Source: a virus
Strand: one strand, 5' to 3'
IMG/VR virus record: IMGVR_UViG_3300021587_000025
DNA length: 49,594 bases
Made by a program: the position numbers and the translations under genes. Shown piece after piece: positions 22,981 to 44,229 of this stretch. Position 1 is the first letter of the stretch. The number at the start of each line of letters is the position of its first letter. The notes beneath the pieces were generated by a model. The model ran no database searches, had not been told where the DNA came from, and was given only the letters and a program-made list of their open reading frames with translations.

Positions 22981-22986
22981 TTCTAA

Positions 22987-24345: not shown

Positions 24346-24383
24346 ACCTCTTCTTCTCCTCCTTTAATTTTTAAATTTTATAT

Positions 24384-24782: not shown

Positions 24783-24783
24783 T

Positions 24784-24981
24784 TTAATCTACCTCCTTTC
24801 GTATTTCTCCTAATTTTCTTTTCAATTCAATATCATTATTAATCAAATTGAGTAGAGTACTAACAATCATTCGGGAATTATCATCAAGGAAACCAGTATC
24901 ACCAATAACCTTAGTACTACCATCAGCATTAACACGTTCAACAATAATACGATACTTAAAAGGTAAACTATCAATGAGCAT
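24784..24981 (-). CDS. Hypothetical protein
   Basis: 65-aa ORF tightly coupled to its neighbours; its 3' end contains the RBS (AGGAGGT) for the next gene. Confidence 0.5.
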   Translation of the reverse strand: MLIDSLPFKYRIIVERVNADGSTKVIGDTGFLDDNSRMIVSTLLNLINNDIELKRKLGEIRKEVD

Positions 24982-24982
24982 T

Positions 24983-26930: not shown

Positions 26931-27872
26931 CTACGATGACAAGTTAATAGCAGCCTGGAATATTCCTTTGACATCGAAACGCATAGCAACTTTAAGGTTC
27001 ATCAAATCGTTCCGTGGGTCATTAAACTTCTCCAGTGTGACGTCATTGTACATACCTATTGCGAGTACACGTGAAGAATCGAACACTGTACCCTTTATCG
27101 TACCACCCCATGAACCATTCGAGTCTGTAACCGTAAGCAAGTAGGGCTTCAGACCGAGTATCTTACCACCAAGTTCCTGAGTTCTAAATCTACCAGTCTC
27201 TCCTGAATATTCATAAGTGAAGTGTGGATCCATAAACAGGTCACGCTCTAAGATCGTTGTCATCAATAGCGAATCCGGATTGTAACCTGCATCTTTTAGC
27301 TTAAATACCGCCTGAGCTATCGAATCTATTGGCTTGGAAGTATTGTAACCAACACTCGAACCCGCCTGAGCTAAAAGTACATCCAGAGCCTTACGATTGA
27401 GTGTGTTCTCTGCTTTCTTACCTTCCTCTCTCAATCGCATCTCTACAATATCGAACATACTGTCCTTAATGAGTTCCTCTTCTATCATCGCTATCTCACC
27501 ATACTTCTTCGCATCAAACCTGACTTCTGTATAACTCTCATTCGCTGCTACTGGATAATCACTCGTAGGTGGTACAACTGGTAATACGTCATTTAGTCTC
27601 GTCTGGTGAACAATCACACGGTAAGATGGTGTAGGCAGATTCCATGTCATACCCTTGAACACATCTCGCATTACTCGAACGCTGTCAACACCTTCAATTA
27701 CTTTCTTCAGTACTTCTGTGCGTACAAGGAAACTGGCATTTACAGCCGAAGTCTCTATCAATTCATGATAACCCGCAGTAGCCTCATCTTTCTTGAGAGC
27801 AGTAAGCGCTTTAGAACGCTCCTCATCAGTTTTTGCATACACAACATCAAATAATTTACCTAAAGTACTCAT
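26931..27872 (-). CDS. Major capsid protein, HK97 fold
   Basis: 'KKYGEIAMIEEELIKDSMFDIVEMRLREEGKKAENTLNRKAL' backbone-helix region; A-domain 'PDSLLMT...LGGKILGLKP'; follows scaffold and decoration genes. Confidence 0.9.
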   Translation of the reverse strand: MSTLGKLFDVVYAKTDEERSKALTALKKDEATAGYHELIETSAVNASFLVRTEVLKKVIEGVDSVRVMRDVFKGMTWNLPTPSYRVIVHQTRLNDVLPVVPPTSDYPVAANESYTEVRFDAKKYGEIAMIEEELIKDSMFDIVEMRLREEGKKAENTLNRKALDVLLAQAGSSVGYNTSKPIDSIAQAVFKLKDAGYNPDSLLMTTILERDLFMDPHFTYEYSGETGRFRTQELGGKILGLKPYLLTVTDSNGSWGGTIKGTVFDSSRVLAIGMYNDVTLEKFNDPRNDLMNLKVAMRFDVKGIFQAAINLSS

Positions 27873-27876
27873 TTTA

Positions 27877-27883
27877 ACCTCCT
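27877..27883 (-). promoter_or_regulatory. Ribosome-binding site AGGAGGT for MCP (GGAGG/GGTGA sites recur before many genes)
   Basis: AGGAGGTTAAAATG at MCP; GAGGTGATTAGATG at 9896; GGGTGATAAATTTATG at 28873; GGAGGTAGATTAAAATG at 15781. Confidence 0.7.
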
Positions 27884-27890
27884 AATTTAT

Positions 27891-28289
27891 TTAACTTGAT
27901 ATGTTAGGCGCATCTATCAATTTCATTAGCACTACACCCGAAGACGCAGCTTTTACAGCATAACCTATAATCAGGTGATCATTCAAGCCGCTCTTGAGCT
28001 GAGAAACTTTACCTGCAGCATCAGGAACTATATACTTACCTGCAGCAATAGCACCAGATGCATTCGCATACACCTCAGTTGGTGCAGTCACAACACCAAG
28101 CCACTCATCTTTAGCCACTGAATCCATAGCTATACCAGCAAATGCATAGCCACTGCAACTTGCATTCGTAGTCTTCTTTACTGTTTCATCACCAGAAATA
28201 TAAAGTGCATCACCAGCCTCAATAGCTTCACCAGCCAGCCTCCTTCTTATTCGAGGATTAACATCATAAACTATATCCCTTAACACCAT
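27891..28289 (-). CDS. Capsid decoration/cement protein (DUF2190-like beta-tulip)
   Basis: 'AGEAIEAGDALYI...FAGIAMDS...ASGAIAAGKYIVPDAAGKV...IIGYAV', immediately before MCP. Confidence 0.75.
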   Translation of the reverse strand: MVLRDIVYDVNPRIRRRLAGEAIEAGDALYISGDETVKKTTNASCSGYAFAGIAMDSVAKDEWLGVVTAPTEVYANASGAIAAGKYIVPDAAGKVSQLKSGLNDHLIIGYAVKAASSGVVLMKLIDAPNISS

Positions 28290-29180: not shown

Positions 29181-30104
29181 TTATTTACTCAAAATCTCAA
29201 GCGAAGTATGTGGATTAGCTGGTGCTTCTGTAATCGAAGTCTCAATATAGTAAGTGTCACCAAGAATCTCCGAAATGCATCTATCTTTATTACAAACTTG
29301 CTTGATATTAGCTGCTGGATTCTTTATACCAAACTTTATACTAAAACCCCGTATCTCACCATTAAGTATTTTCTGTATTATTCGTTGTGCTACCGGGATG
29401 TCATTCCTGAGCTTAAAAATCAAATATAATTTATCACCAATTAATGCACTTTTTCTATTCTTATATTCCATAAGCATCTCACCGATACATGTAGAACTGT
29501 GATTATCATAGAGTCCTCGAAATTTCTTGGGAGTCTTCTTTATAGATTCCCAAATATCACGTAAAGCTTCTGGAGTTAATCGCTCATTCTCTAAATCTAC
29601 TGATGTATCACTAACAAAACCACCAATTACAAATTCTTTACTCTTCTCTATTATCTCACATGAAATATCATCGGAATTGCCTAAAGACATCTTGTGAACT
29701 ATCTCATTAGGAATACGCTCAACCTTTAAGCGATAGAGAGGATACCAATCCGTATAGCTACCAAATGGTTCATCATGGATGTGTAGATATTCGGGTGTAT
29801 CATCATAAGGAATACCAAACACAGCAGAAAACTGGCGATATAATCTAAATCTAACTGCCTCTTTGAGGATCTCTGGCATGTCAGCATCTCGCATGACTAA
29901 ATCAACATCAGCACCTTGACCCTGAGTAGCAACCGAACCAACTAAAAGAATAAAAGGGTCACGTATAAGAAAAGACTTAAAAAACTTATCTACTTCCTCA
30001 AGAGTGAAACGAGGAGGATTTCTACCAGAAGGTGGAGTAGGGGCATAATCTTCTTCATCTTTCAATCCTTCATAACTGAGCTTCCTTATCTCTTCCTTTT
30101 TCAT
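29181..30104 (-). CDS. Pol-beta-superfamily nucleotidyltransferase-like domain fused to a prohead maturation protease (HK97-type)
   Basis: N-half 'ILLVGSVATQGQGADVDLVMR' (GS...DxD). C-half 'VIGGFVSDTSVDLENERL...YDNHSSTCIGE...IRGFSIK...ETSITEAPANP'. Confidence 0.75.
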   Translation of the reverse strand: MKKEEIRKLSYEGLKDEEDYAPTPPSGRNPPRFTLEEVDKFFKSFLIRDPFILLVGSVATQGQGADVDLVMRDADMPEILKEAVRFRLYRQFSAVFGIPYDDTPEYLHIHDEPFGSYTDWYPLYRLKVERIPNEIVHKMSLGNSDDISCEIIEKSKEFVIGGFVSDTSVDLENERLTPEALRDIWESIKKTPKKFRGLYDNHSSTCIGEMLMEYKNRKSALIGDKLYLIFKLRNDIPVAQRIIQKILNGEIRGFSIKFGIKNPAANIKQVCNKDRCISEILGDTYYIETSITEAPANPHTSLEILSK

Positions 30105-30210
30105 TACTTTCTTCTTCTATCACATATAAACTATAACAAAACGGACAATATCCAAAAATACTTTTAGGGATACGTTTCAATTCTATATGACACAAAGGAC
30201 ACTCTTCCAT
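30070..30210 (-). CDS. Small zinc-ribbon protein (46 aa, not in the ORF track)
   Basis: Manual translation MEECPLCHIELKRIPKSIFGYCPFCYSLYVIEEESNEKGRDKEAQL; two CxxC pairs; starts 2 nt after the upstream stop. Confidence 0.6.
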   Translation of the reverse strand: MEECPLCHIELKRIPKSIFGYCPFCYSLYVIEEESNEKGRDKEAQL

Positions 30211-30212
30211 AT

Positions 30213-31223
30213 CTAAAATATGACCTCTTTTATGTCAAGAATCCCTATTACCTTATCTCTATCTACAACTACAAGTTGGTCAACATCATTATCTCGCATT
30301 AACTGTGCAGCATCTGCGACTGTTTCATTTACATCAATCACAAGTGGATTCTTATTCATAAATTCAGATATCTTCCTCTGCATGTCGAATTCTTCTCTGC
30401 TTCCTATAAGTCTCTTCAAATCACCAGCAGTGAATACACCTTTCAATTGACCATCATCAGAACTAACTGCAACAGCCCCACCTTTATTTGCAATCATAAG
30501 AGCCAAGCAGTAATCTAAGCTATCAGTTTCCTTCACTACTAAATTTCTATTTATATTACGTGTAGCAACTGGTTTAAGCATTTCAATATCCATCTTGAAA
30601 GTCTCTGTTCCTTTATCAGTCAATGGATGATAAAACATCTGTGCTAATATATTGGGACGAATAGTAACTGCATCTGCACCTATCATATAGGATTTAATGA
30701 CATGCTGTGGATGACGAATGCTTGAAGACATGACCTTAGTCTCTTCACCATTCACCATGAACGAAGACTTAATAATCTCAAGATTCTCTATAGCATCGTG
30801 ACCTATATCATCAAGCCTACCTATTAATGGACAGATGTACGTAGATTTAACCGTAGCAGCTAATAAGGCTTGACTAACAGAATAAATCAAATGTAAATTT
30901 GTTTTGATACCAACTGAAAGTAATCGCTGCGTAAGTCTAAGCCCATCTTCTGAAAATGGTATCTTAAAGACCAATTCATTATCCTTAGTATCATCACTTA
31001 ACTTTACTGCATTATCAAACATCTCATCAACATTTGCTCCAGTTGCTTCAAGATGAATCTCACCATCAGACATTCTCTTTCTGATTTCTAATACCATCTG
31101 TTTATCATCAGACACACCAGCCCTTCGCTGAAATGTAGGATTAGTTGTAACTCCTTGGATTATACCCAAATTATAATAATATTCAATAGCATCAAGATCA
31201 ACAGAATCTAAAAATATCAACAT
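30213..31223 (-). CDS. Transaldolase/fructose-6-phosphate aldolase (TalC/FSA) domain fused to a CBS-domain pair
   Basis: 'IFLDS...GVTTNPT...VFKIP...PLIGRLDDIG...SSIRHP' (Schiff-base Lys in FKIP), followed by 'LKGVFTAGDL...MNKNPLVI...LVVVDRDKVIGIL' CBS repeats. Confidence 0.85.
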   Translation of the reverse strand: MLIFLDSVDLDAIEYYYNLGIIQGVTTNPTFQRRAGVSDDKQMVLEIRKRMSDGEIHLEATGANVDEMFDNAVKLSDDTKDNELVFKIPFSEDGLRLTQRLLSVGIKTNLHLIYSVSQALLAATVKSTYICPLIGRLDDIGHDAIENLEIIKSSFMVNGEETKVMSSSIRHPQHVIKSYMIGADAVTIRPNILAQMFYHPLTDKGTETFKMDIEMLKPVATRNINRNLVVKETDSLDYCLALMIANKGGAVAVSSDDGQLKGVFTAGDLKRLIGSREEFDMQRKISEFMNKNPLVIDVNETVADAAQLMRDNDVDQLVVVDRDKVIGILDIKEVIF

Positions 31224-31235
31224 TTTATCTTATTT

Positions 31236-32024
31236 CTAACAAGAATGTAATGCGTCCCAAACAGGTTTAACAGCCTGTATTAACTTCTCAAATTCTGAAA
31301 ATGATAATTGAGTAGCATTATCACAACGAGCATACATAGGACAAGGATGACATTCGATAAATAGACCATCAGCACCTGCAGCTATCATAGCTTTTGATAG
31401 AGTAGATGCATAATACTTCATGCCTCCTTGAAGAGAATGAGAGGGAATACCATATCTTCTAACTGTATGACCTGCATCGAAATAAACAGGAAAGCCAAAC
31501 TGTTTCAATTCATAGACACTACGAGGATCAACAACTAAATCATGATAGCCAAACATTGTGCCTCGCTCTGTAATCATAATCTTATCGTTTCCACATCTTC
31601 TGATTTTTTCTATAATATGTCCAACATCCAAAGGAGCTAAGAATTGCCCTTTCTTAATATTTATTGGTTTCTTAAATGATGCCATACGCTTTGTTAATTC
31701 TGTTTGCATACAAAGAAAAGCGGGTAACTGAAAAACATCTATAATCTTGACCAAATCAGTATCAAATTCATATAGATTATGAAAATCTGTAAGAAGCGTT
31801 AGATTGAATTCATCTTTTAGCTTCTCAAATATCCTAATGCTTTCCTCAATAGATAGACCTGAAAAATACTTAAGACTTGTTCGATTATCCTTCTTAAAGG
31901 AAGATTTGTATATTAAATTGAAATCATATTTCTCGCTCATCTTAACTAAGAATTCGGCTGTTTCTAATGAAATATTCTCAGACTCTAATACACAATTACC
32001 TGCAATTATATTTAATTTCTTCAT
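31236..32024 (-). CDS. kdsA: KdsA-like 3-deoxy-ulosonate-phosphate synthase (metal-dependent type) with altered substrate motifs; start likely 32024 rather than 32078
   Basis: IAGNCVLES, KSSFKKDNRTS, QLPAFLCMQT, NIKKGQF, TERG, FDAGH, FIECHP, CDN; ATGA overlap with the upstream stop supports the 32024 start. Confidence 0.85.
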   Translation of the reverse strand: MKKLNIIAGNCVLESENISLETAEFLVKMSEKYDFNLIYKSSFKKDNRTSLKYFSGLSIEESIRIFEKLKDEFNLTLLTDFHNLYEFDTDLVKIIDVFQLPAFLCMQTELTKRMASFKKPINIKKGQFLAPLDVGHIIEKIRRCGNDKIMITERGTMFGYHDLVVDPRSVYELKQFGFPVYFDAGHTVRRYGIPSHSLQGGMKYYASTLSKAMIAAGADGLFIECHPCPMYARCDNATQLSFSEFEKLIQAVKPVWDALHSC

Positions 32025-32590
32025 TTTCTTCCTACTATAAGATGATATGGGAAATGAAAACGACCTGGCTGATACCATTCATTTTCTATATAAAATCCAA
32101 TATCTGTCATCATCTTCTTTACTTCATCACCCTTTATATTAAAATGTTTATGAAATGCAGATGCACTACTCTTTTCCTCCTTTTCAGGATGAGATAAAAC
32201 TAATAGTCCTCCGGAATAAAGTGTATTATAAAATTTTTGACACGTTTCAAATATAGGTATATCTAAATGTTCAATAGTCTCGAAACTAACTATCACATCA
32301 AAATTTCCTAAAGGTGTTAAATCAGTATTTAAATCAAATCGCTGGAATGAAATATTCTCGGCAATCCAGTATTTCTTGGCGTAATCTATTGCTTCCTGTG
32401 AATAATCAACTCCTAAAACGGTATCTGCTTCTTTAGATAGAATATTTGAACCATACCCACATCCACACGCAGCATCTAAAACACTCTGGTCTCTGGAATA
32501 TCTTCGAGCAAATAAATATCTTTCAACATGTTTTATCTCTATATCTTCTATTCTTTCACCTATCTGACGTTCTCCATTCCATCCATCCAT
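32021..32590 (-). CDS. Class I SAM-dependent methyltransferase
   Basis: 'HVERY...VLDAACGCGYGS...LGVDYSQEAI...DVIVSFETIEHL'. Confidence 0.85.
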   Translation of the reverse strand: MDGWNGERQIGERIEDIEIKHVERYLFARRYSRDQSVLDAACGCGYGSNILSKEADTVLGVDYSQEAIDYAKKYWIAENISFQRFDLNTDLTPLGNFDVIVSFETIEHLDIPIFETCQKFYNTLYSGGLLVLSHPEKEEKSSASAFHKHFNIKGDEVKKMMTDIGFYIENEWYQPGRFHFPYHLIVGRK

Positions 32591-32615
32591 TTTTACTTCC
32601 TAATTGAGCTCTCAT

Positions 32616-33263
32616 CTACATCATACGTGAAATACATTCTGCTATCATTAATTCATCCATTGTATCAATATCCCAACCTTCAAGCATATCCACAATCTTG
32701 ATATAAGGATTAAATCCAATCCTTCTTTTATGCTTTTTAAATAAATCCTTTGAAAATATATAGAGTCCTGAAGTTTCTTGTATAACTGGTTTTAAATCCT
32801 GAGTTCTTGGCACGTTATCTAACTCATAATTCAAAGGTCTACCATCAAACCAACAAAAAGAATAAAGTTCAGTAGCTAAAAATGCAGAGTCGTAATCTCC
32901 TGTCTCTATTTTATTAATCATATCCTGAATAGTCTCGGACTTAATAAACGGAGAAGTGCAGCTTAGAAATACAATGTAATCACCGTCTATATCATCTATT
33001 ATACTTTCAAGAATATCATTAAATGTAATATTATCTCCATCAAGATAAGAAGGTCTTTCAATAAACAAATATTTTAAATCTGAATCAATGTAATTTCGAA
33101 TACGTTCCTGACTACAATACAGGATAGTTTCAGAAATACTATCAACTTGATTAAGAATAGATATCGCTTTACTTACGAGAGGAACACCATTAATTTCTCT
33201 TATGCTCTTAAACGGAACTCGCTTGCTATTCAGCCTAACCGTAACATAACCTATAAATTTCAT
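32616..33263 (-). CDS. CMP-ulosonate synthetase (NeuA/CMP-KDN-type cytidylyltransferase)
   Basis: 'VRLNSKRVPFKSI...LSCTSPF...ETSGLYIF...DIDTMDEL'; has the NeuA-type TSPF motif, not the KdsB QGDEP motif. Confidence 0.85.
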   Translation of the reverse strand: MKFIGYVTVRLNSKRVPFKSIREINGVPLVSKAISILNQVDSISETILYCSQERIRNYIDSDLKYLFIERPSYLDGDNITFNDILESIIDDIDGDYIVFLSCTSPFIKSETIQDMINKIETGDYDSAFLATELYSFCWFDGRPLNYELDNVPRTQDLKPVIQETSGLYIFSKDLFKKHKRRIGFNPYIKIVDMLEGWDIDTMDELMIAECISRMM

Positions 33264-33949
33264 ACTATGTCTTCTAATCTTTCTCGCTTGAATACTTCTA
33301 ATTTCCCACCAACTGTAGCATTGATAATCTCTCTACCATCTGCCTCAAAGGCTCTCTTACATATCTCATAACCATAAAAAATATCAGACCAGTCATCAAG
33401 AACTCCACGCCCACCTATATTATCAGTAATCGAGCCATCGAATCTATGCAGACCAGAATAGTCACAATCACAACCAAGAAGATACACTTTATCGAAGCCC
33501 ATGTAATAAGCAACTTGCAAGCATATATCAATTATGATTGTCTCACCAAGATAAGCACCACGAACTATGTCTTTAGAGATATCTCCTGCTGTCCATATCC
33601 TTCCCAATTCACGAATAATGTAAACCTCCGCTTTTTGCCTATCTCCCACATGCCTACCATTTCTAAGATATAAATCCGCAGCTCCAGATGATAAAAAGAG
33701 AATTGTATCTAAACTAAGAATATTTTGATAATGATTTTCCCAGACCATGTAATCTGAGACAGCGTAATATTTGCATTTTATTTTGAATTTCTCTAAACCT
33801 GTATAGAGTGTATTGACTCCAAAAATTATCTCGTCTTTTATTAAACTGAAATTTGTCTTATTCAGAGATGGACCAGTACCTACTATAAAACACCGTTCAC
33901 CTTTATGAATATCCTTAAATTTTTTAAGAGCTTCCCCTCGCTTCCACAT
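33260..33949 (-). CDS. DUF115/MptE-like (Maf/sialyltransferase-like) protein, putative CMP-ulosonate transferase
   Basis: 'FKDIHKGERCFIVGTGPSL...IFGVN...AYYMGFDKVYLLGCD'. Confidence 0.75.
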   Translation of the reverse strand: MWKRGEALKKFKDIHKGERCFIVGTGPSLNKTNFSLIKDEIIFGVNTLYTGLEKFKIKCKYYAVSDYMVWENHYQNILSLDTILFLSSGAADLYLRNGRHVGDRQKAEVYIIRELGRIWTAGDISKDIVRGAYLGETIIIDICLQVAYYMGFDKVYLLGCDCDYSGLHRFDGSITDNIGGRGVLDDWSDIFYGYEICKRAFEADGREIINATVGGKLEVFKRERLEDIV

Positions 33950-34256
33950 ACTCCTTCACAGAACTAAAAGCTCTGTCATCAATAATAACATGATAAACTG
34001 GCTTGTTTATATCGAGGATGTGATATTTAACTCCCCAATTCTTTAATTGTTGTCTTGTAATATTCCATACATCTTTGTGTCTGAAAACTCCTCTTGCTGT
34101 CCATAAAACAATTGTATTGCCTTCATCATATAACTTATTTATTAATCTTATAGCTTCAGGATTAGGTACAGCTTTATCAAAGTCCGGACCCAAATCCTCA
34201 AGTGTTATCACACCATCTATATCAATTGCAATTATTTTCTTCATAGATATCATCAA
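33924..34256 (-). CDS. Small capless HAD phosphatase (capsular/sugar-phosphate type)
   Basis: 'IAIDIDGVI' (DxD), 'WTARG', 'KPVYHVIIDDRA'. Confidence 0.85.
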   Translation of the reverse strand: MMISMKKIIAIDIDGVITLEDLGPDFDKAVPNPEAIRLINKLYDEGNTIVLWTARGVFRHKDVWNITRQQLKNWGVKYHILDINKPVYHVIIDDRAFSSVKEYVEARGSS

Positions 34257-34258
34257 AA

Positions 34259-34429
34259 TTAACTTAAACTGTAATAATACTCTCCGTAGTCATCTATTGC
34301 ATAATCATCTATATCCATTCGTACATAGGGCAAAGAAGACTTTTCAATAGGTGCATAAATTCCATCCTTTGTACGTTCAAGAAATTTTATATATACATTA
34401 TATTCTTCAAGATACTCTTCTTCCTTCAT
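34259..34429 (-). CDS. Small acidic Tyr-rich protein (56 aa, not in the ORF track)
   Basis: Manual translation MKEEEYLEEYNVYIKFLERTKDGIYAPIEKSSLPYVRMDIDDYAIDDYGEYYYSLS; stop lies 2 nt before the next ATG. Confidence 0.5.
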   Translation of the reverse strand: MKEEEYLEEYNVYIKFLERTKDGIYAPIEKSSLPYVRMDIDDYAIDDYGEYYYSLS

Positions 34430-34474
34430 GAGACGTCCATATATACACCTACAATCAATTTTTATATATCACCC

Positions 34475-34513
34475 AATATAAATGTATACCTAATCAAAAA
34501 TATTTCGTTCACG
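34475..34513. promoter_or_regulatory. Partial copy of the intergenic element, inverted relative to copy 1
   Basis: The reverse complement CGTGAACGAAATATTTTTGATTAGGTATACATTTATATT matches 18312..18350 (CGTGAACAAAATATTTTTACTTATCCTATACTTTATATT) at 28 of 39 positions ungapped. Confidence 0.45.
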
Positions 34514-34518
34514 CTTAT

Positions 34519-35244
34519 CTATTTGCGTCTCCTTAAATCTCTACGAATAATCTCTCGTACTGCTTCCTCTACACCAAACTTTGTATCATTTTTATTGAAC
34601 ACTATATCCTTAAATGGACATGTAACTGGTCTTGCATCATTTTCAGGACATACACCCAAGGTCACTCCTCGACACCAAATGTGTTCAAAAATTGTAGGAT
34701 AAGCGTCTAAGCAAAGTTTATACATTTTCTTAGCGAGTTCTCTCATTTCAGGAGCTGCACGTACACATAACCTAAGCATAAAGAAATTAATTAAACTTCG
34801 AACATTCATAGTAACTACATAACGAGTATGTAATGCCATTGGTAATACATATCTTGCTTCTTCTCTTTTGAATCCAATAACTCGGAGTTGTTTATACGCA
34901 TCATTTGCTCGCTCCATTGCTCTCTTATAAGCCTTAAGTGCATTTTTATCTCGCTTTATCTCACGAGGAATATAGTATCCAAAACTGTCTTCTTCATTGT
35001 ATCTTGTACTTCTTGCGGTATGAGAAGCTATCCTATGTTCTAATAACTCTCTACTCAATGCAACACTTATGTCCTCAATATCGAATGTGAAATAGATATG
35101 TTCAAGAACCGAACTATAATCATTATCAACAATCATCTTAGCTATTGACTGAGTATCTACTTTATCTGAAAAACCACTAACTCTTGCAGCATTAGCAATT
35201 AATTCCAAACCATCTTTAGTCACTCTCAATAAGTTTACCCTCAT
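34519..35244 (-). CDS. thyX: Flavin-dependent thymidylate synthase ThyX (divergent signature)
   Basis: 'SVLEHIYFTFDI', 'EHRIASHTARSTRY', 'EEARYVLP', 'MNVRSLINFFMLRLCVRAAPEMRELA'. Confidence 0.85.
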   Translation of the reverse strand: MRVNLLRVTKDGLELIANAARVSGFSDKVDTQSIAKMIVDNDYSSVLEHIYFTFDIEDISVALSRELLEHRIASHTARSTRYNEEDSFGYYIPREIKRDKNALKAYKRAMERANDAYKQLRVIGFKREEARYVLPMALHTRYVVTMNVRSLINFFMLRLCVRAAPEMRELAKKMYKLCLDAYPTIFEHIWCRGVTLGVCPENDARPVTCPFKDIVFNKNDTKFGVEEAVREIIRRDLRRRK

Positions 35245-35253
35245 ACTTTGATT

Positions 35254-36183
35254 TTATCCACCAACACTCATACAACATTTACACGGAAAATCTGGATCAG
35301 ATAGCTTCAAACCCGTTGCCTTATCAACAAAATCTTTACGCTTTTCTCCATTCCAAATTTCCTTAATTGATTGTTTCCTCAGATTACCCCAAACAGGCTT
35401 GCAAGAATACAACATACAGCAAGGCAGCACGTCCAAGTTATACAATACATGCAACCCACTAATAAATCGCCAACATGAAAATGAATGATATTTATCAATA
35501 GCACGATAGAAATTATTAGCAGCTTTCCATTCCTCCATTTTTACTTCACCTGCTCTATTATGAAATCGGTAATAATCAAGTTTCACATTTGCAGGATTAA
35601 GATTATTTTCTTTGAAAATCTTGACCCAGTATTCATGATAGTCTTCTTCCGTAAAATACACTAAACTTCCATCAATAGACGCTCCACTTCCTCTCAGAAT
35701 CGTAATCAACTGACCATCATTAATCATTAAATACTCAATTATGTTATTTAGCGTCTGAGCGTAATTTTTTCTTCTCATTAAAGTTTCATAGGTTTCCTTA
35801 TTTATTGCATGATGAGAAATCCATATATGAGATCTGCGAGATTTATCGTTTTTAGTAATCACTTCAACAAGTTGTTCTGCAAGTTTAGGAGTAAGTTTCA
35901 TTGCATTTGTAGAGACTTCAATACTACATTTAGGAAAATATTTGAATGCCAATTCTATGCGCTCAATCAATTTTTCATCAAGTGTTGGTTCATTCATCAG
36001 ATAAGGACAGAATTGACCATCGAAATTAGGCTGAGCTTCTTTTATTCGTTCTAAAACCAATACATAATCTTCATCACTCATCTTGCCCGGATACTTCTTC
36101 ATCCATGAATAGCTTGCAGGACAGAATACACAATTTCCATTACAACCAGAAACAGTTTGAACCTGAATTAAATTGAATTTCAT
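35254..36183 (-). CDS. Radical SAM enzyme with a SPASM/twitch domain
   Basis: CNGNCVFC (CxxxCxxC), YLMNEP, STNA, NRAG, and C-terminal 'CWR...LPCC...GNLRKQSIKEIWNG...CKCC'. Confidence 0.9.
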   Translation of the reverse strand: MKFNLIQVQTVSGCNGNCVFCPASYSWMKKYPGKMSDEDYVLVLERIKEAQPNFDGQFCPYLMNEPTLDEKLIERIELAFKYFPKCSIEVSTNAMKLTPKLAEQLVEVITKNDKSRRSHIWISHHAINKETYETLMRRKNYAQTLNNIIEYLMINDGQLITILRGSGASIDGSLVYFTEEDYHEYWVKIFKENNLNPANVKLDYYRFHNRAGEVKMEEWKAANNFYRAIDKYHSFSCWRFISGLHVLYNLDVLPCCMLYSCKPVWGNLRKQSIKEIWNGEKRKDFVDKATGLKLSDPDFPCKCCMSVGG

Positions 36184-36192
36184 CTTATCACC

Positions 36193-36990
36193 TCATAAAA
36201 TATAATCTGCTTTCTTTTCTAAGAACTTCTTTTTGTCCACATTCCAATTGTAATTATTGTATGCATAGAACTTACCATTAGCTATCTCAAACCGATCTAT
36301 CTTCATATAATAAACATCTGTAAAATCGAACGGTGAACGATTAGCTGGATGATTATACGAATAAGCCATTAGTTCTCTATCGAATCTAACTTTATAACCG
36401 AGCATCAATAATCTGTGTAAAAATTGAATATCTTCATAACCCCAACCTAAAGCATCATAGATTTCACTATATCCATTGAGAATCGACATCACCTCTAACG
36501 GATAAATACCGAATGAAAAAGTAAACATCGGATTATCTATTTTAAAATAACGACCAGTGCCACCAAAATTAGATTTCCATTTCTCATGATTTTGGCTCTG
36601 CCAGAGTTTCTCGCCAATTATAGCCCACTTCTCATACGTCTCCGAAAAATATTCGATATCTTCTGCAACTACATCCCAGAAATCCGGTCTGAATTCTAAT
36701 GAATCATCGCATCGTAGTATATAAGAACTCTCTGCATACAAAAGTGCAGTATTGAGTGCTTGAGAGAAATCTCGTTTTGTTTTGATTTCATTTTCCTTTA
36801 CTGGTGCATAAACAATTTGATAGTACTCATTTTTTCGTTCTTTAAGAAAAGCCTTAGTATCTTCATTGTAATTACTATCAATGACTATCAACTCTGCATC
36901 AGTAGAAGGATTTACAAATATTGGCTTTAAATATGATTTATCACGATTAGTAGCTATAATTACAGAATATTTAGGATTTGTTTTATTCAT
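36193..36990 (-). CDS. GT-A fold glycosyltransferase (GT2-like)
   Basis: 'YSVIIAT...IVID...ALNTALLYAESSYILRCDD...GWGYEDIQF'. Confidence 0.8.
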   Translation of the reverse strand: MNKTNPKYSVIIATNRDKSYLKPIFVNPSTDAELIVIDSNYNEDTKAFLKERKNEYYQIVYAPVKENEIKTKRDFSQALNTALLYAESSYILRCDDSLEFRPDFWDVVAEDIEYFSETYEKWAIIGEKLWQSQNHEKWKSNFGGTGRYFKIDNPMFTFSFGIYPLEVMSILNGYSEIYDALGWGYEDIQFLHRLLMLGYKVRFDRELMAYSYNHPANRSPFDFTDVYYMKIDRFEIANGKFYAYNNYNWNVDKKKFLEKKADYIL

Positions 36991-37166
36991 TTCAAAATGC
37001 TCATTATCTCATCCTTGACCAGCAACCCAATTAGTGATAAAACACTAATCAGAGCAATCCAGTAACCGAGACTACTTGTATGTATCAACGACACTATTGT
37101 TATTAATATTATACCAACCTCAATCATTTCTCGTTCGGTAAATTCTATTGCATCTATTGCTTTCAT
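36987..37166 (-). CDS. Small two-TM membrane protein (59 aa, not in the ORF track)
   Basis: MKAIDAIEFTEREMIEVGIILITIVSLIHTSSLGYWIALISVLSLIGLLVKDEIMSILK; ATGA overlaps on both sides. Confidence 0.6.
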   Translation of the reverse strand: MKAIDAIEFTEREMIEVGIILITIVSLIHTSSLGYWIALISVLSLIGLLVKDEIMSILK

Positions 37167-41300: not shown

Positions 41301-41756
41301 TTAATAAACTCTCGCCACATGCGCCGCTGGAGTAGGAACAACTGCAACCCTTTCTAAATTAAGATCAACTATTCTTATAAAAAACTGTTCATCTTTATCA
41401 AGAGATTTGAATTCAGTACTCAAGCCATTATTTCCTTCAGCGAATTGTTGTAAAACCCAACGATTCCAACGAGGATAAACATGGATATCACCAAGAAGTA
41501 CCTTATTATGTGAATCATAATTGAAATTATCTACATAACCTATCTCAACATTCTTTCTTTCATGACCAAATATCAAAGGAACTCTATCGGGTCGTACCTT
41601 GCTTAATACACTATCGGGTATAAAAATCGGTCTCCCATCAGAAGTAGAATCATAAATCAGTTCATCAGCCTGCAAAAGAGGACGCTGAATATATACATCT
41701 TTAGACCTAACATCGAGATATACAATTTGAGTAACAACCCTCCGTCTAAATCTCAT
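41301..41756 (-). CDS. Stand-alone prohead protease-like protein (S77/S78 fold)
   Basis: 'VPLIFGHE...EIGYV...GLSTEF...LERVAVVPTPAAHVARV' (His and Ser motifs); directly after portal. Confidence 0.65.
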   Translation of the reverse strand: MRFRRRVVTQIVYLDVRSKDVYIQRPLLQADELIYDSTSDGRPIFIPDSVLSKVRPDRVPLIFGHERKNVEIGYVDNFNYDSHNKVLLGDIHVYPRWNRWVLQQFAEGNNGLSTEFKSLDKDEQFFIRIVDLNLERVAVVPTPAAHVARVY

Positions 41757-42784
41757 TTTGAATAGGGTAAAACTAAACTTGCAGGTGGTAATATTTTAAT
41801 TTTCGCCTTAGTATCTTTTAATATTTGCGTGTTTATCGCTTTCTGAAGCGCTTTTTGATAATATTTAATTGTAAAAGTCAACCATACATTAGCACGACTT
41901 TTAGCTGTGGCAAATGAACCTGACTTCGTTATTGCTCCTATTATTTCAGGAGGCGTGCCACTTCCCACAAGAATGCTATTCATTGCCCACATCATATAGT
42001 CTTCCAACTGCGGAACAGTACTCTTAGAATCTATAACATCTATCTCGATGAGGTCAGTAGTTACAAACTCATGATCTCCTGAAAGATCTTTAAATTCCTG
42101 ACCTATCCTTCTCCTCTCTTCTTCCGAAGGATAACGACCAGTCATTTCGTCTTTATGACATACAACATGGAAACGTGGCATGTGTCGAGCTATAGCTATG
42201 GCAGTATTTTCCTCAATTAAACGCTTACGTTCTATCGCCCTCTTACTTGCACCTAATAAAGGTATACCATATAAACTATCAGGTCTATGAAAAAACTCTA
42301 CTTCAAAAATATCATCCTGAGTAAGATTCTTATTCTCATAAACATAAACAACATCCCCGTTGGACTTTAATTTCTTAGTAACATCTAATGGAAATAGAGG
42401 AACAATATTATAAAACTCACCAGCTCTATTCCTAATTATTTTAGAAAAAGAATTCCCGAATATAAGAGTATCACGAACCACATCATAGAAATTCATCCAC
42501 GCTCTATCGAATGCAGTTCTCAAGTGTTCAAATTCTTCAGAGCCTTTAGCAATTCCTTCTAATTCAAAATCTTCACCTAAAGCAATTGTAGAAATAGCCT
42601 GTACCACCGCCCACGCTGTTTCATCCGTAAGATACAAATTCCATAATCGCTTCAACAATTCAGTATTCCGCTGTGCAGCGCTATCATCAATACCTTTAAT
42701 TTGTATATTGAGCTTTTCTGAATTAACTCTGTAATTTTCACTTATTTCAACTTCATTATCCAAATCCTTAAACTTAATCCTCAT
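41753..42784 (-). CDS. Portal protein (compact)
   Basis: Follows TerL; 'DTLIFGNSFSKI...IVPLFPLDV...DSLYGIPLL...GTPPEIIG...GSFATAK'. Confidence 0.8.
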   Translation of the reverse strand: MRIKFKDLDNEVEISENYRVNSEKLNIQIKGIDDSAAQRNTELLKRLWNLYLTDETAWAVVQAISTIALGEDFELEGIAKGSEEFEHLRTAFDRAWMNFYDVVRDTLIFGNSFSKIIRNRAGEFYNIVPLFPLDVTKKLKSNGDVVYVYENKNLTQDDIFEVEFFHRPDSLYGIPLLGASKRAIERKRLIEENTAIAIARHMPRFHVVCHKDEMTGRYPSEEERRRIGQEFKDLSGDHEFVTTDLIEIDVIDSKSTVPQLEDYMMWAMNSILVGSGTPPEIIGAITKSGSFATAKSRANVWLTFTIKYYQKALQKAINTQILKDTKAKIKILPPASLVLPYSK

Positions 42785-44229
42785 ACCTTAGTAACACTCC
42801 AACTAAAATCTTCTGACCTATCATCAACTCTTGTAAACGACCATAGATTAGCATCGGGCTGACGTTCATTCACACTTGAAACATCCATCGCTTGCAAAGC
42901 CAAAGCTAAAGCATCACAAAGATCATCCCTACCACGACCTTCTGCAGGACCCATCTTCTTATGTTCTGAATCATAATAAACAAATGAACCTAATTCTTGC
43001 ATCAAACGAGGAAACTCATCAGCAACAATATTTACCTTTCTATTATAAAATGCTAATACCAATTTATCAATTAATTGTTTTTTCAAAATATCATTGTGAA
43101 TTGAAACACCAACTATAGGAAGATCACGGAGATCGCTAATTATAACATCACCAATACCACTTTTATCTGCTACGATTCTAACAGGTTTAAACCGCCTATA
43201 CAACTCTCTTATTTTAGCGAATTGAATTTGCCAATCATCAGAAAAAGTGGCTGTGTATTTAACATCACCAGTTTCCATATCAATTACTACAACAGCAGTA
43301 GGATCAATTGAACGTCCAAAATCTATACCCATGACAAGATTACCACTATTAGGTAAATGTTCATTTCGTTTTATGGCATCGAGTAGAAGATCATCTGGTA
43401 TCACTCTGTTGGTTACACTTCTAAATTTAGCCTCATATAGTTGTTCATACAATTCCTCCATTCCCGAACGCTTATATTCCTCACGCTTCTTTTCAAACAC
43501 CGACCTGGGTATCCAAAAACACTCATGAGGTTCTAATGAAATACGAACAACATCCTCAGCATTCCACACATTCAACATCACAGTAGAATTCAGATAAGGA
43601 GTAGAAGCTGCAACCTCTATGCCACCTTGAGTAGCCATCTGCGAAAAAGAAGCATAGTAGGCTTCAGGAGTCAAACGCCCTATTTCATCAATTAAAAGAA
43701 GAGAGGCATGCCAGCCTGTACGAGTTTTTGGTGATTGAGGCATTGATATGATTTTAGAATTAAGCTTTGCTAATTTTATTTCTGTTTTTGATGCTGTTGC
43801 TTCGTATTTGCTTTCAATATAACGTCTAAATACTGAATTACTTATCCAGCGCCGTATTTCTTCTATATGCTTCTTAGCAACTGGCTCAGAAATTGAGCCT
43901 ATAACTGTAAGGGAATTAGAAAAATGTGTTACCTCTATAAACGCAAGCATATCGAGCAGAACCGATTTACCTGCTCCCGTTGCTGATTTTAGTATAATCC
44001 TCTTTTTATCACTAAGACCTAATCTTGCAGCAAGATATAATTTGATTACATCATAGAATTTCTTACCACGTGGTCTAATGAAAACACCATCTTTATTTTT
44101 CGGTAATTCACAAAAAAATTCAAATATTTGTCTGTTTATAGGAGTATTACATTCATCACAGAATATGCGACCATACCTAATCTCCCTACCACAGTGATAA
44201 CAGTAAGACAGATACCTCTCCGAAACCAT
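42781..44229 (-). CDS. terL: Terminase large subunit with an N-terminal zinc finger
   Basis: Walker A ATGAGKS, Walker B LLLIDE, nuclease MGIDFGRSIDPTA and RDDLCDALALA; N-terminal CYHC...CDEC. Confidence 0.92.
   Translation of the reverse strand: MVSERYLSYCYHCGREIRYGRIFCDECNTPINRQIFEFFCELPKNKDGVFIRPRGKKFYDVIKLYLAARLGLSDKKRIILKSATGAGKSVLLDMLAFIEVTHFSNSLTVIGSISEPVAKKHIEEIRRWISNSVFRRYIESKYEATASKTEIKLAKLNSKIISMPQSPKTRTGWHASLLLIDEIGRLTPEAYYASFSQMATQGGIEVAASTPYLNSTVMLNVWNAEDVVRISLEPHECFWIPRSVFEKKREEYKRSGMEELYEQLYEAKFRSVTNRVIPDDLLLDAIKRNEHLPNSGNLVMGIDFGRSIDPTAVVVIDMETGDVKYTATFSDDWQIQFAKIRELYRRFKPVRIVADKSGIGDVIISDLRDLPIVGVSIHNDILKKQLIDKLVLAFYNRKVNIVADEFPRLMQELGSFVYYDSEHKKMGPAEGRGRDDLCDALALALQAMDVSSVNERQPDANLWSFTRVDDRSEDFSWSVTKV

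What the first reader, a model, noticed from the sequence alone, without database searches (positions are those of the whole stretch)
30213..36990. Virus-encoded 3-deoxy-ulosonic-acid (Kdo/KDN-like) glycan pathway inserted in the head-morphogenesis operon
Seen: a contiguous, translationally coupled set lies between portal/protease 1 and protease 2/scaffold/MCP. It has an aldolase-CBS fusion, KdsA-like synthase, HAD phosphatase, NeuA-type CMP-synthetase, DUF115/Maf-like protein, SAM methyltransferase, radical SAM/SPASM enzyme and GT2. Three more GTs and an FkbM lie just upstream of terL. Known: synthase > phosphatase > CMP activation > transferase is the logic of the Kdo, KDN and sialic acid pathways. 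A Kdo pathway is known in the giant virus CroV, and some mycobacteriophages glycosylate virions using GTs encoded among structural genes. Inference: this probably archaeal tailed virus makes its own modified ulosonate-capped glycan late in infection, to decorate the virion or to remodel the host surface against competitors. I know of no described archaeal head-tail virus with this pathway, but could not search.
Basis: partly seen in the sequence, partly recalled or inferred. Interest (0 to 1): 0.88.

Follow-up and report, generated by a model that had tools for sequence, protein, structure and literature searches.

The report
Virus-encoded Kdo sugar pathway in head module
A tailed virus from hydrothermal sediments, probably infecting archaea, carries intact genes among its head genes to make, activate and transfer the acidic sugar Kdo; such genes are known in a few phages and one giant virus, but I found no report for an archaeal virus.

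Summary
They are tightly packed.

- **Substrate supply:** In 53 of 80 cellular genomes the fusion lies beside kdsA. The five genomes checked have no KdsD, so it probably supplies arabinose-5-P.
- **Product:** The KdsA motif changes (KDNRT, LCMQT) also occur in the only KdsA of LPS-making bacteria. Ordinary Kdo-8-P is therefore likelier than an exotic sugar.
- **Transferase:** The DUF115 model matches CstII sialyltransferase.
- **Selection:** All genes are intact, match the virus in composition, and show dN/dS of 0.04-0.19.
- **Variation:** Related viruses vary the block: methyltransferase present or absent, two added dehydrogenases, CBS lost, Kdo unit absent.
- **Host:** A 91%-identical viral contig encodes an archaeal-type PCNA. 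Fragments were binned into archaeal MAGs, and the closest named relative of the fusion in the tree is from a Heimdallarchaeota MAG.

Kdo genes in viruses are not new: they are published for CroV and a cyanophage, and a KdsA-HAD-TAL trio occurs in T4-like marine viral contigs. Earlier notes of this scan describe similar DUF115/GT/methyltransferase/radical-SAM head cassettes in other phages. The target, virion or host surface, is unproven.

The parts
48074..49594 (-). 506-aa protein with a weak GT2-like N-terminus and an FkbM-type methyltransferase domain
   Evidence: PF05050 at E 2e-20; PF00535 only at E 0.003. FkbM homologues (about 29% identity) lie about 5 kb from the KdsA-HAD-TAL trio in the T4-like viral contigs.
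47185..47862 (-). 225-aa possible nucleotide-sugar transferase (weak)
   Evidence: PF03407 at E 0.0067, below cut-off; phrog_1574 (function unknown) at E 5.5e-13.
45172..46287 (-). GT4/GT1-type glycosyltransferase
   Evidence: PF00534 at 44.5 bits and PF13439; no TM segment.
42781..44229 (-). Large terminase (context)
   Evidence: Terminase_6C. Remote hits to Thermus phage TerL. A fragment of the 90% cluster (RLI52266.1) was binned in a Thorarchaeota MAG.
41753..42784 (-). Portal protein (context)
   Evidence: PF04860 at 55 bits; phrog_12.
36987..37166 (-). 59-aa hydrophobic small ORF whose stop overlaps the GT2 start (ATGA)
   Evidence: Read directly from the sequence.
36193..36990 (-). GT2-family glycosyltransferase, soluble
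   Evidence: PF00535 at 31.9 bits; no TM segment; 95% aa identity and dN/dS 0.044 against G006.
35254..36183 (-). Radical SAM / SPASM enzyme, probably glycan-related
   Evidence: PF04055 and PF13186; CX3CX2C motif at residues 14-21. Homologues occur fused behind GT2-like domains. dN/dS 0.071.
34519..35244 (-). ThyX, flavin-dependent thymidylate synthase; not part of the sugar pathway
   Evidence: PF02511 at 180 bits; TIGR02170 at 132 bits against a cut-off of 88.
33924..34241 (-). Mini-HAD phosphatase, candidate Kdo-8-P phosphatase (KdsC analogue)
   Evidence: DxDGV motif at the N-terminus. phrog_1238 at E 3.5e-28. PDB 9iqw 'capsule biosynthesis protein' at E 1.8e-12. A homologue sits between KdsA and TAL in 9 viral contigs (8 T4-like group contigs plus L096).
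33260..33949 (-). DUF115/MptE-like protein with a sialyltransferase fold; candidate CMP-Kdo transferase
   Evidence: PF01973 at 51.3 bits against a cut-off of 34.6. phrog_4603 'alpha-2,3-sialyltransferase' at E 8.7e-9. AF2 model pLDDT 91. Foldseek top hits are CstII, E 2.3e-5, TM 0.55.
32616..33263 (-). NeuA/PseF-like CMP-ulosonate synthetase
   Evidence: PF02348 at 53 bits. PseF 55 bits, KdsB models 21-34 bits, all below cut-off. Best PDB hits are CMP-Neu5Ac synthetases.
32021..32590 (-). SAM-dependent methyltransferase, an optional module
   Evidence: Methyltransf_25/31/23. A joint 32019>32617 that removes exactly this gene is seen in all four runs laid. The gene is absent in L086.
31236..32078 (-). 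KdsA, metal-dependent Kdo-8-phosphate synthase; the likely true start is at 32024
   Evidence: NF003543 at 287 bits against a cut-off of 242. Best PDB hits are all Kdo8P synthases. The Cys/His/Glu/Asp metal ligands are kept. Motifs read KDNRT and LCMQT where the solved enzymes have KANRS and LCRQT.
30213..31223 (-). TalC/FSA barrel fused to a KdsD-like CBS pair; candidate arabinose-5-P supplier
   Evidence: PF00923 and 2x CBS. The CBS part matches KpsF/KdsD models best. It has His111, Cys131 and Leu133 where T. acidophilum transaldolase has Thr, Ser and Phe. It lies next to kdsA in 53 of 80 cellular loci.
30088..30210 (-). 40-aa CPxC...CPxC zinc-ribbon small ORF that fills the gap before the protease
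   Evidence: Read directly from the sequence.
29181..30104 (-). Prohead protease (S78 domain in the C-terminal half)
   Evidence: PF04586 at 26.7 bits. 99% aa identity to G006.
26931..28289 (-). Cement/decoration protein (27891-28289) and HK97-fold major capsid protein (26931-27872); candidate acceptors
   Evidence: PF09956, PF25209 and PF05065; Atlas capsid clusters.

Best explanation
The block is a working, virus-owned module for an acidic eight-carbon sugar.

Proposed steps:
1. The TalC/FSA-CBS enzyme supplies D-arabinose-5-phosphate (inferred).
2. KdsA condenses it with PEP to Kdo-8-phosphate (family membership shown).
3. The mini-HAD removes the phosphate (inferred from synteny).
4. In some strains a methyltransferase or dehydrogenases modify the sugar (inferred).
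5. The NeuA-like enzyme makes the CMP-sugar (family shown, substrate inferred).
6. The sialyltransferase-fold DUF115 protein transfers it (fold shown, activity inferred).

The soluble GT2, the GT4 and the FkbM-type enzymes probably build the underlying glycan.

All enzymes lack membrane segments. No lipid-carrier, flippase or oligosaccharyltransferase gene was found among the ORFs scanned. The genes sit in one tightly coupled array with the protease, scaffold, cement and capsid genes. For these reasons the most likely target is a virion head protein, glycosylated in the cytoplasm late in infection.

The virus most likely infects an archaeon of anoxic hydrothermal sediments.

The stated confidence (0.45) is for the whole statement including the virion target. 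The pathway part alone I put at about 0.75-0.8, and the archaeal host at about 0.8.
For: - Gene identities.
- The TAL-CBS fusion lies next to kdsA in 53 of 80 cellular loci.
- None of the five genomes checked has a KpsF/KdsD match over the cut-off. All five have WaaA, and four have a single KdsA over the cut-off. In the two examined, the small SIS ORFs are GmhA.
- E. coli FsaA interconverts arabinose-5-P and glycolaldehyde + GAP (PMC6900487).
- The KdsA-HAD-TAL order recurs in unrelated viral contigs.
- The DUF115 model matches CstII and other CMP-sugar transferases.
- No TM segments in any enzyme. Tight coupling with no excess of promoter-like or terminator-like sites.
- All genes are intact, dN/dS is 0.04-0.19, and GC3 equals the viral background.
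- Homologues of the radical SAM enzyme occur fused to GT2-like domains.
- Host: PCNA in the 91%-identical contig; binning into archaeal MAGs; sister to a Heimdallarchaeota MAG protein at 99/93 support; hydrothermal vent and sediment runs.
Against: - No enzyme activity, product or glycosylated protein has been observed.
- The cytidylyltransferase scores below every curated cut-off and resembles NeuA/PseF more than KdsB.
- In the Saccharibacteria MAG the homologous block lies in a Wzm/Wzt export locus. That points to cell-surface glycans rather than to proteins modified in the cytoplasm.
- The window and its relatives are incomplete (CheckV 37%), so missing carrier or export genes prove little.
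- PCNA lies on a relative's contig, just outside the window.
- The binned fragments are only 2-3 kb and were assigned to two different archaeal phyla.
- The Heimdallarchaeota contig could itself be viral.
Confidence: 0.45

Rival explanations
1. Same pathway, different target. The CMP-sugar feeds the host's own surface glycan (S-layer, pilus or polysaccharide). The virus thereby caps or alters its receptor during infection, to exclude other viruses or to stop progeny from re-binding.
For: - The closest cellular version of the block (L002) sits in a Wzm/Wzt ABC-exporter polysaccharide locus, with DUF115 fused to a pyruvyl transferase.
- The Hydrothermarchaeota locus pairs TAL-CBS/KdsA/KdsB with a KpsS/KpsC-like capsule Kdo transferase.
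- Published readings of phage LPS genes favour surface remodelling (PMC5332604, PMC12801897).
- Strain-level gain and loss of modifying genes fits an arms race at the cell surface.
Against: - Placement inside the head-morphogenesis array, rather than with early genes.
- All enzymes are soluble, and no carrier or export gene was found among the ORFs scanned.
- To my knowledge (not checked here), DUF115 relatives (Maf) glycosylate proteins directly.
Confidence: 0.33
2. The product is not Kdo but another 3-deoxy-ulosonate. The altered KdsA (KDNRT, LCMQT) and the altered aldolase active site would use a different aldose phosphate, and a NeuA-type activator would handle the product.
For: - Motif changes in KdsA at positions that, as I recall, bind the arabinose-5-P phosphate.
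- His/Cys/Leu replace Thr/Ser/Phe in the TAL active site.
- The activator is closer to NeuA/PseF than to KdsB.
- Methyltransferase, radical SAM and, in G006, Zn-ADH + SDR genes sit in the block.
Against: - The same KDNRS + LCMQT motifs occur in 51 of 53 kdsA genes next to TAL-CBS.
- These include the only KdsA over cut-off in Thermonema and Chitinophagaceae genomes, which also carry the Kdo transferase WaaA.
- The variant pair therefore most simply makes ordinary Kdo-8-P.
Confidence: 0.15
3. The host is a bacterium without LPS (CPR or Chloroflexota) rather than an archaeon.
For: - Close homologues of the DUF115-CMPsyn-KdsA-TAL-HAD block occur in Saccharibacteria.
- Relatives of the TAL-CBS and DUF115 proteins occur on Chloroflexota/Dehalococcoidia and Parcubacteria contigs.
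- TerL has remote hits only to Thermus phages.
Against: - An archaeal-type PCNA is encoded on the 91%-identical contig.
- Fragments were binned only into archaeal MAGs.
- The TAL domain is sister to a Heimdallarchaeota MAG protein.
Confidence: 0.15
4. The genes are passive cargo recently picked up from a host and not used by the virus.
For: The block is absent from some related genomes (joints 30212>34018 and 30210>33462).
Against: - No cellular genome in 185,579 species representatives holds a copy above 62% aa identity.
- GC3 matches the virus.
- All genes are intact with dN/dS of 0.19 or less.
- The position is conserved in three related viral contigs.
Confidence: 0.03

Closest known systems
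Bacterial CMP-Kdo pathway (KdsD, KdsA, KdsC, KdsB, WaaA)
   Same: The order of chemistry is the same: aldose-5-P supply, PEP condensation by a true KdsA, HAD phosphatase, CTP activation, transfer.
   Different: The SIS isomerase KdsD is replaced by a TalC/FSA-CBS fusion. The phosphatase is a 105-aa mini-HAD rather than KdsC. The activator is NeuA/PseF-like rather than KdsB. The transferase is DUF115 (sialyltransferase fold) rather than GT30 WaaA. The genes are virus-encoded and there is no lipid A context.
Putative Kdo cluster of the giant virus CroV (Fischer et al. 2010, as reviewed in PMC9614988 section 3.1.2.4)
   Same: A virus carrying its own predicted Kdo biosynthesis genes of prokaryotic type.
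   Different: CroV is a 618-kb eukaryotic giant virus, and the genes sit in a 38-kb carbohydrate island. Here a tailed virus of the HK97 lineage, probably archaeal, holds them inside the head-assembly array.
KdsA/KdsB (or NeuA) genes in marine phages: cyanomyovirus S-SCSM2R (PMC12801897) and a 179-kb Tara viral genome (PMC5332604)
   Same: Tailed viruses with KdsA and a CMP-synthetase. The uncultivated viral contigs found here also share the HAD and the His-variant TAL next to KdsA.
   Different: Those are T4-like phages (the cyanophage infects LPS-bearing cyanobacteria; the Tara genome's host is unknown). They are read as cell-wall modifiers, and no DUF115 transferase or CBS fusion is reported. 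They are not in the head module.
Mycobacteriophage virion glycosylation by glycosyltransferases encoded among structural genes (Freeman et al. 2023, recalled; echoed in PMC11256854)
   Same: Sugar-transferase genes embedded in the structural operon. Soluble enzymes are presumed to act on capsid proteins in the cytoplasm.
   Different: Those phages use host nucleotide sugars and ordinary GTs. Here the virus also encodes de novo synthesis and CMP activation of an ulosonic acid.
Campylobacter CstII (GT42) sialyltransferases and Maf/DUF115 flagellin glycosyltransferases
   Same: Pfam DUF115/MptE-like membership, an N-terminal G-x-G-P-S motif, and a fold match to CstII (TM 0.55). The donors are CMP-activated ulosonic acids.
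   Different: About 14% sequence identity. The donor here is presumably CMP-Kdo rather than a nonulosonate. The acceptor is unknown and the catalytic residues were not verified.

Membership tests
Kdo-8-phosphate synthase (KdsA, NF003543 / TIGR01362) | Score above the curated equivalog cut-off | tested here: met
   NF003543 at 287.4 bits against a cut-off of 242. TIGR01362 at 272 bits is below its cut-off of 314. All 40 PDB matches listed (E up to 1e-20) are Kdo8P synthases.
Kdo-8-phosphate synthase (KdsA) | Metal and PEP ligands (Cys, His, Glu, Asp; Lys, Arg) of the metal-dependent class | tested here: met
   In the alignment to A. aeolicus 1fwn, IAGNC, DAGH, FIECH and CD are conserved, as are KKGQFLAP and TERG.
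Kdo-8-phosphate synthase (KdsA) | Canonical KANRS and LCRQT arabinose-5-P site motifs | tested here: not met
   The motifs read KDNRT and LCMQT. The same variant is found in 51 of 53 kdsA genes next to TAL-CBS, including sole housekeeping copies. It therefore defines a subfamily rather than excluding Kdo8P synthesis.
Arabinose-5-phosphate isomerase KdsD/KpsF (SIS + CBS pair) | SIS catalytic domain | tested here: not met
   No SIS domain was found among the ORFs scanned with Pfam. Only the CBS pair of the TAL fusion matches KpsF/KdsD models, at positions 168-267.
Transaldolase / fructose-6-P aldolase (TalC/FSA, TIGR00875) | Score above cut-off, and the canonical active-site residues Thr, Ser and Phe (transaldolase) or Tyr (FSA) | tested here: not met
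   171.9 bits against a cut-off of 245.95. The Schiff-base Lys87, Asp6 and Glu59 are kept. His111, Cys131 and Leu133 replace Thr, Ser and Phe of T. acidophilum transaldolase. It has the fold and the Lys, but belongs to a distinct subfamily.
Kdo-8-P phosphatase KdsC (HAD-IIIA) | HAD motif I (DxD) and a family score above cut-off | tested here: inconclusive
   The DIDGV motif is present. HAD-SF-IIIA scores 21 bits against a cut-off of 44.6, and BT0820-type 24 bits against 165. The role is inferred from the conserved KdsA-HAD-TAL order.
CMP-Kdo synthetase KdsB (TIGR00466, NF0039xx) | Score above the curated cut-off | tested here: not met
   21-34 bits against cut-offs of 155-281. PseF scores 55 bits against 206. 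The protein is a member of Pfam CTP_transf_3 (53 bits against 22.6). The nearest solved proteins are CMP-Neu5Ac synthetases.
DUF115 / MptE-like (PF01973), sialyltransferase-like fold | Pfam score above the gathering threshold, and fold similarity to CMP-sugar transferases | tested here: met
   51.3 bits against 34.6. AF2 model pLDDT 91. Foldseek finds CstII at E 2.3e-5 with TM 0.55, and also P. multocida and human ST8SiaIII sialyltransferases.
DUF115 / sialyltransferase-like transferases | Transfer of a CMP-activated ulosonate to an acceptor | not testable with these tools
   Needs an enzyme assay. The M. jannaschii pterin kinase MptE shares the fold, so fold alone does not prove transferase activity.
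Phage virion-glycosylation cassettes | Glycosyltransferase genes embedded in the structural (head) operon | tested here: met
   The gene order is portal ... GT2 ... DUF115 ... KdsA, TAL-CBS, protease, scaffold, cement, MCP, all on one strand and tightly packed.
Phage virion-glycosylation cassettes | Glycan demonstrated on virion proteins | not testable with these tools
   No virions or proteomic data are available.
Archaeal tailed viruses (Caudoviricetes of archaea) | Archaeal-type replication proteins or a direct host link | tested here: inconclusive
   PCNA is encoded on the 91%-identical contig G006 and matches archaeal PCNAs full-length at 65 bits, against 27 bits for eukaryotic ones. Binning into archaeal MAGs. 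No spacer or provirus evidence. PCNA lies outside the window itself.

The most novel reading that the evidence does not exclude
An archaeal (possibly Asgard-infecting) head-tail virus coats its capsid with a Kdo-type acidic sugar that it makes from scratch. It uses a previously unrecognised arabinose-5-phosphate-forming transaldolase-fold enzyme that also replaces KdsD in the LPS pathway of many bacteria. The virus population keeps reshuffling the modifying genes to vary the glycan.
Probability: 0.25. Interest if true: 0.82.

Novelty: new variant of a known kind. Interest (0 to 1): 0.62.

Why it matters
Viruses that build their own glycans are well documented for giant viruses and a few phages. 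For archaeal viruses, the held papers mention only isolated glycosyltransferases.

- **A complete pathway in an archaeal-type virus.** Synthesis, activation and transfer of an ulosonic acid, placed among head genes, would extend autonomous viral glycosylation to the archaeal virosphere. It also hints that Kdo-like sugars matter on archaeal surfaces or virions in hydrothermal sediments.
- **A possible missing enzyme.** The TalC/FSA-CBS fusion appears to be the missing arabinose-5-P source of the Kdo pathway in many Bacteroidota and other LPS-making bacteria that lack KdsD. This can be tested directly by complementing a laboratory E. coli kdsD gutQ mutant.
- **Annotation of marine phage 'talC' genes.** Some 'talC' auxiliary genes of marine phages may belong to Kdo synthesis rather than to the pentose-phosphate pathway.

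Tried and rejected
The gene neighbourhoods of the Heimdallarchaeota and Chloroflexota homologues could not be read.
- **No whole genome** is held for the window, and no tRNA was found.
- **Magrovirus guess rejected.** I first took the IMG/VR contigs with KdsA-HAD-TAL plus PolB and a chaperonin for magroviruses. The PolB is T4 gp43-like, 33% identical to a Microcystis myophage.
- **Endosialidase link rejected.** The Pfam 'endosialidase' hit of the 1097-aa tail fibre comes from a repeated fibre motif (DLGSSxxRWKNIYA). It has no solved-structure sequence match, so it gives no link to ulosonate-cleaving enzymes.
- **Promoter and terminator scans** found nothing above the shuffled expectation. They do not cover archaeal promoters.
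- **RNA-library contigs** (run X20) lie on 29 of 30 bins of the region. Contigs from an RNA library can hold DNA and cannot rank genes, so I do not claim expression or timing.
- **DNA hypermodification** (prompted by ThyX, radical SAM, methyltransferase and GTs lying together) was considered and set aside, at 5% or less. KdsA, a CMP-synthetase and a sialyltransferase-fold enzyme point to glycoconjugates, and ThyX is a common viral nucleotide gene.
- **Literature.** Searches combining 'archaeal virus' with Kdo terms, and transaldolase with CBS, KdsD or Bacteroidetes, found no prior description. The library is incomplete.
- **Not used.** Complex prediction was not used, because enzyme-substrate pairs rarely pass it. 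The second structure job was also not used.

Full report
**Anatomy**

All long ORFs of the window lie on the minus strand. In the direction of transcription the order is as follows.
- A GT2-like/FkbM methyltransferase fusion, a weak Nucleotid_trans-like ORF, a signal-peptide ORF and a GT4.
- TerL and the portal.
- Two small ORFs, a 788-aa protein with an ATP-dependent ligase domain, and a 431-aa ORF.
- The flagged block.
- An S78 prohead protease, a scaffold-like protein, a cement protein and an HK97-type capsid protein.

The block contains nine genes:
- GT2, 36193-36990.
- Radical SAM/SPASM, 35254-36183.
- ThyX, 34519-35244.
- A 105-aa HAD, 33924-34241.
- DUF115/MptE-like, 33260-33949.
- A CTP_transf_3 cytidylyltransferase, 32616-33263.
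- A SAM methyltransferase, 32021-32590.
- KdsA, 31236-32078.
- A TalC/FSA barrel with a C-terminal CBS pair, 30213-31223.

It missed ThyX. The 'protease 1' next to the portal could not be confirmed. Only one of the three extra glycosyltransferases is solid.

Genes overlap or are 25 nt or less apart. The three larger gaps are filled by tiny ORFs: a 42-aa ORF, a 59-aa hydrophobic ORF whose stop overlaps the GT2 start, a 56-aa ORF, and a 40-aa zinc-ribbon ORF. Sigma-70-like sites and terminators do not exceed the shuffled expectation.

**What the enzymes are**

*KdsA.* It passes NCBI's equivalog cut-off (287 bits against 242) and matches only Kdo-8-P synthases among solved structures. The Cys/His/Glu/Asp metal site is intact. 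Its motifs read KDNRT and LCMQT where the solved enzymes have KANRS and LCRQT.

*TAL domain.* It keeps the Schiff-base Lys87, Asp6 and Glu59. It has His111, Cys131 and Leu133 where T. acidophilum transaldolase has Thr, Ser and Phe. These three residues are invariant in 13 fusion proteins. Its CBS pair matches KpsF/GutQ/KdsD models best.

*Cytidylyltransferase.* It scores below every curated cut-off. It is closer to PseF/NeuA than to KdsB.

*HAD.* It matches a phage family (phrog_1238, E 3.5e-28) and a solved 'capsule biosynthesis protein'.

*DUF115 protein.* It folds with pLDDT 91. Its best structural matches are the CMP-sialic-acid transferase CstII (E 2.3e-5, TM 0.55), other sialyltransferases, and the archaeal pterin kinase MptE.

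*Radical SAM enzyme.* Its homologues often occur fused behind other domains. In one case (P0304) that domain begins with a canonical GT2 N-terminal signature. This ties the subfamily to glycan work, though only weakly.

None of these enzymes has a predicted membrane segment.

**Evidence from cellular genomes**

The best 80 are mostly Bacteroidota, with Scalindua, Proteobacteria, Gemmatimonadota, Ignavibacteriota and Verrucomicrobiota.
- In 53 of these 80, kdsA lies within about 2.4 kb, usually directly beside the fusion.
- In 51 of those 53, KdsA has the same KDNRS + LCMQT variant as the virus.
- Five genomes were examined whole. None has a KpsF/KdsD match over the cut-off; the best hits are the CBS part of the fusion itself.
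- In the two genomes examined, the small SIS ORFs are GmhA, at about 250 bits to solved phosphoheptose isomerases.
- Four of the five have a single KdsA, and all five have the Kdo transferase WaaA.

The variant KdsA plus TAL-CBS is therefore the housekeeping Kdo route of these LPS-making bacteria. This has two consequences.
1. The fusion very probably supplies arabinose-5-phosphate in place of KdsD. E. coli FsaA, which has the same fold, interconverts arabinose-5-P and glycolaldehyde + GAP (PMC6900487). A retro-aldol/aldol 2-epimerisation of ribose-5-P is a second chemically plausible route; this is my inference.
2. The altered KdsA motifs do not by themselves argue for an exotic sugar.

**Two kinds of locus**

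In the TAL-domain tree the LPS bacteria form one clade. The virus falls in the other, together with proteins from organisms without LPS and from viruses.

In a Saccharibacteria MAG the block DUF115 (fused to a pyruvyl transferase), cytidylyltransferase, TylF methyltransferase, KdsA, TAL-CBS and HAD lies inside a Wzm/Wzt exporter polysaccharide locus. It shows 47-62% identity to the viral proteins.

A Hydrothermarchaeota contig has radical SAM/SPASM, TAL-CBS, KdsA, a canonical KdsB and a KpsS/KpsC-like protein. DUF115 and TAL-CBS relatives share contigs in Chloroflexota and Heimdallarchaeota MAGs, judged by matching contig lengths.

**Viral relatives and population variation**

IMG/VR contig 3300021563_000009 (G006, 66.5 kb, CheckV 37% complete) is 91% identical in DNA on both sides. 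Across HAD, DUF115 and the cytidylyltransferase it is only 72.6% identical. It also has a 1.8-kb insertion encoding a Zn-dependent alcohol dehydrogenase and an SDR.

A third relative (L086) has cytidylyltransferase, KdsA, TAL without CBS, then protease and MCP, with no methyltransferase.

Contigs from four public runs show the same variants.
- A joint that removes exactly the methyltransferase (32019>32617) occurs in all four runs.
- A 185-nt indel after ThyX occurs in all four runs.
- Two joints start at the TAL-CBS stop codon and remove the whole Kdo unit (30212>34018 and 30210>33462). Each rests on one contig.

Between the window and G006 every gene of the block is intact. dN/dS is 0.04-0.19, like the structural genes at 0.01-0.09. 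GC3 is 0.19-0.27, against 0.22-0.27 for most other viral genes (0.39 for the capsid gene). This rules out recent passive capture and decay. It shows an accessory, recombining module under selection.

**Other viruses**

Ten further IMG/VR contigs carry the His-variant TAL without CBS, and nine of them keep the order KdsA, HAD, TAL. One, a 173-kb contig, adds the cytidylyltransferase, methyltransferases, a second DAHP-synthase-family gene and sialyltransferase-like GTs.

The one of these contigs that I tested encodes a T4-like gp43 polymerase. These contigs are therefore probably bacterial myophages. Another contig (L102) has DUF115, cytidylyltransferase, methyltransferase and KdsA in the window's order.

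Published cases are CroV (PMC9614988), cyanomyovirus S-SCSM2R and a Tara viral genome. Earlier notes of this scan describe DUF115/GT/methyltransferase/radical-SAM cassettes next to capsid genes in many phages, and a CMP-keto-sugar island in a giant virus. These notes are AI leads and I did not re-test them.

**Host**

- G006 encodes, just beyond the window's left end, a 246-aa PCNA. It matches archaeal PCNAs over its full length at 65 bits, against 27 bits for eukaryotic ones. It also encodes anaerobic NrdD, dCTP deaminase and an RNA ligase.
- Fragments at 90% identity or more to TerL and the protease, and an 81%-identical TAL, were deposited in Thorarchaeota and Korarchaeota/Thermoproteota MAGs.
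- The TAL of the virus group is sister to a Heimdallarchaeota MAG protein, at 99/93 support.
- The DNA occurs in hydrothermal vent and sediment metagenomes of 17 studies.
- TerL relatives and some radical SAM variants carry inteins.

Together this makes an archaeal host likely, at about 0.8, without naming the lineage.

**Mechanism and target**

The pathway reading is well supported, at about 0.75-0.8. The target is open. I favour virion proteins for four reasons:
- The genes are placed and coupled within the head array.
- All enzymes are soluble.
- No carrier, flippase or oligosaccharyltransferase gene was found among the ORFs scanned.
- Maf/DUF115 enzymes glycosylate flagellin directly, and mycobacteriophages glycosylate their capsids. 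Both points are from my own knowledge.

Remodelling of the host surface is nearly as likely, given the exporter context of the cellular homologues.

**Verdict**

This is a real, functional and interesting block, and a new variant of a known kind. The most transferable result is the TAL-CBS/KdsA pairing.

Noticed in passing
window 30213-32078; loci L005-L081: A TalC/FSA-CBS fusion travels with a KdsA subfamily (KDNRS, LCMQT) in hundreds of genomes. These are Bacteroidota, Scalindua, Proteobacteria and others. The five genomes checked lack KdsD. It is probably an undescribed arabinose-5-P source for LPS Kdo, and NCBIfam has no specific model for it.
   Followed up: partly
L087-L095, e.g. L094:6589-8341: Uncultivated marine viral contigs carry KdsA, a mini-HAD and a His-variant 'talC' in a row; the one tested (L094) has a T4-like gp43 polymerase. 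An FkbM-like gene lies about 5 kb away. Some phage 'transaldolase' auxiliary genes may therefore serve Kdo synthesis rather than the pentose-phosphate pathway.
   Followed up: partly
L096:5230-17284 (IMGVR_UViG_3300046744_000223, 173 kb): A large viral glycan island. It holds a TOD1/MUCI70-like GT, a GT29-like sialyltransferase hit, a cytidylyltransferase, KdsA, HAD, two methyltransferases, TAL, a 2-hydroxyacid dehydrogenase, a second DAHP-synthase-family gene and a GT2.
   Followed up: no
window 35254-36183; proteins P0499 and P0502: Some population variants of the radical SAM gene encode 673 aa. The insertion has intein-like sequence. TerL relatives of 812-837 aa carry intein/LAGLIDADG Pfam domains.
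   Followed up: partly
L083:9807-10547 (G006), just left of the window: The 91%-identical viral contig encodes an archaeal-type PCNA. It also encodes anaerobic ribonucleotide reductase NrdD, dCTP deaminase, an RNA ligase and a DUF5131 protein.
   Followed up: partly
window 1-3291: The tail-fibre protein (over 1097 aa, running off the window) has at least six repeats of a 'DLGSSxxRWKNIYA' motif, which draws a spurious endosialidase Pfam hit. Its C-terminal part looks like a right-handed beta-helix depolymerase by eye.
   Followed up: partly
window 15828-18248: An 806-aa protein carries DUF2341 and a GH32/GH130-like beta-propeller hit. Three further DUF2341-lectin proteins lie at 21904-26017.
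   Followed up: no
window 19454-20521: A TnpB-like gene (Cas12f1-like TNB domain) lies inside the neck/tail region, on the same strand as the structural genes.
   Followed up: no
window 38573-40939: A 788-aa protein with an ATP-dependent DNA ligase domain sits between the portal and the glycan block, followed by a 431-aa ORF with no family hit. The head module thus carries about 11.7 kb of non-structural cargo.
   Followed up: no
L003:8090-14084 (Hydrothermarchaeota MAG contig): An archaeal contig holds radical SAM/SPASM, TAL-CBS, KdsA, canonical KdsB and a KpsS/KpsC-like capsule Kdo-transferase homologue. This suggests Kdo-containing glycans in an archaeon.
   Followed up: no
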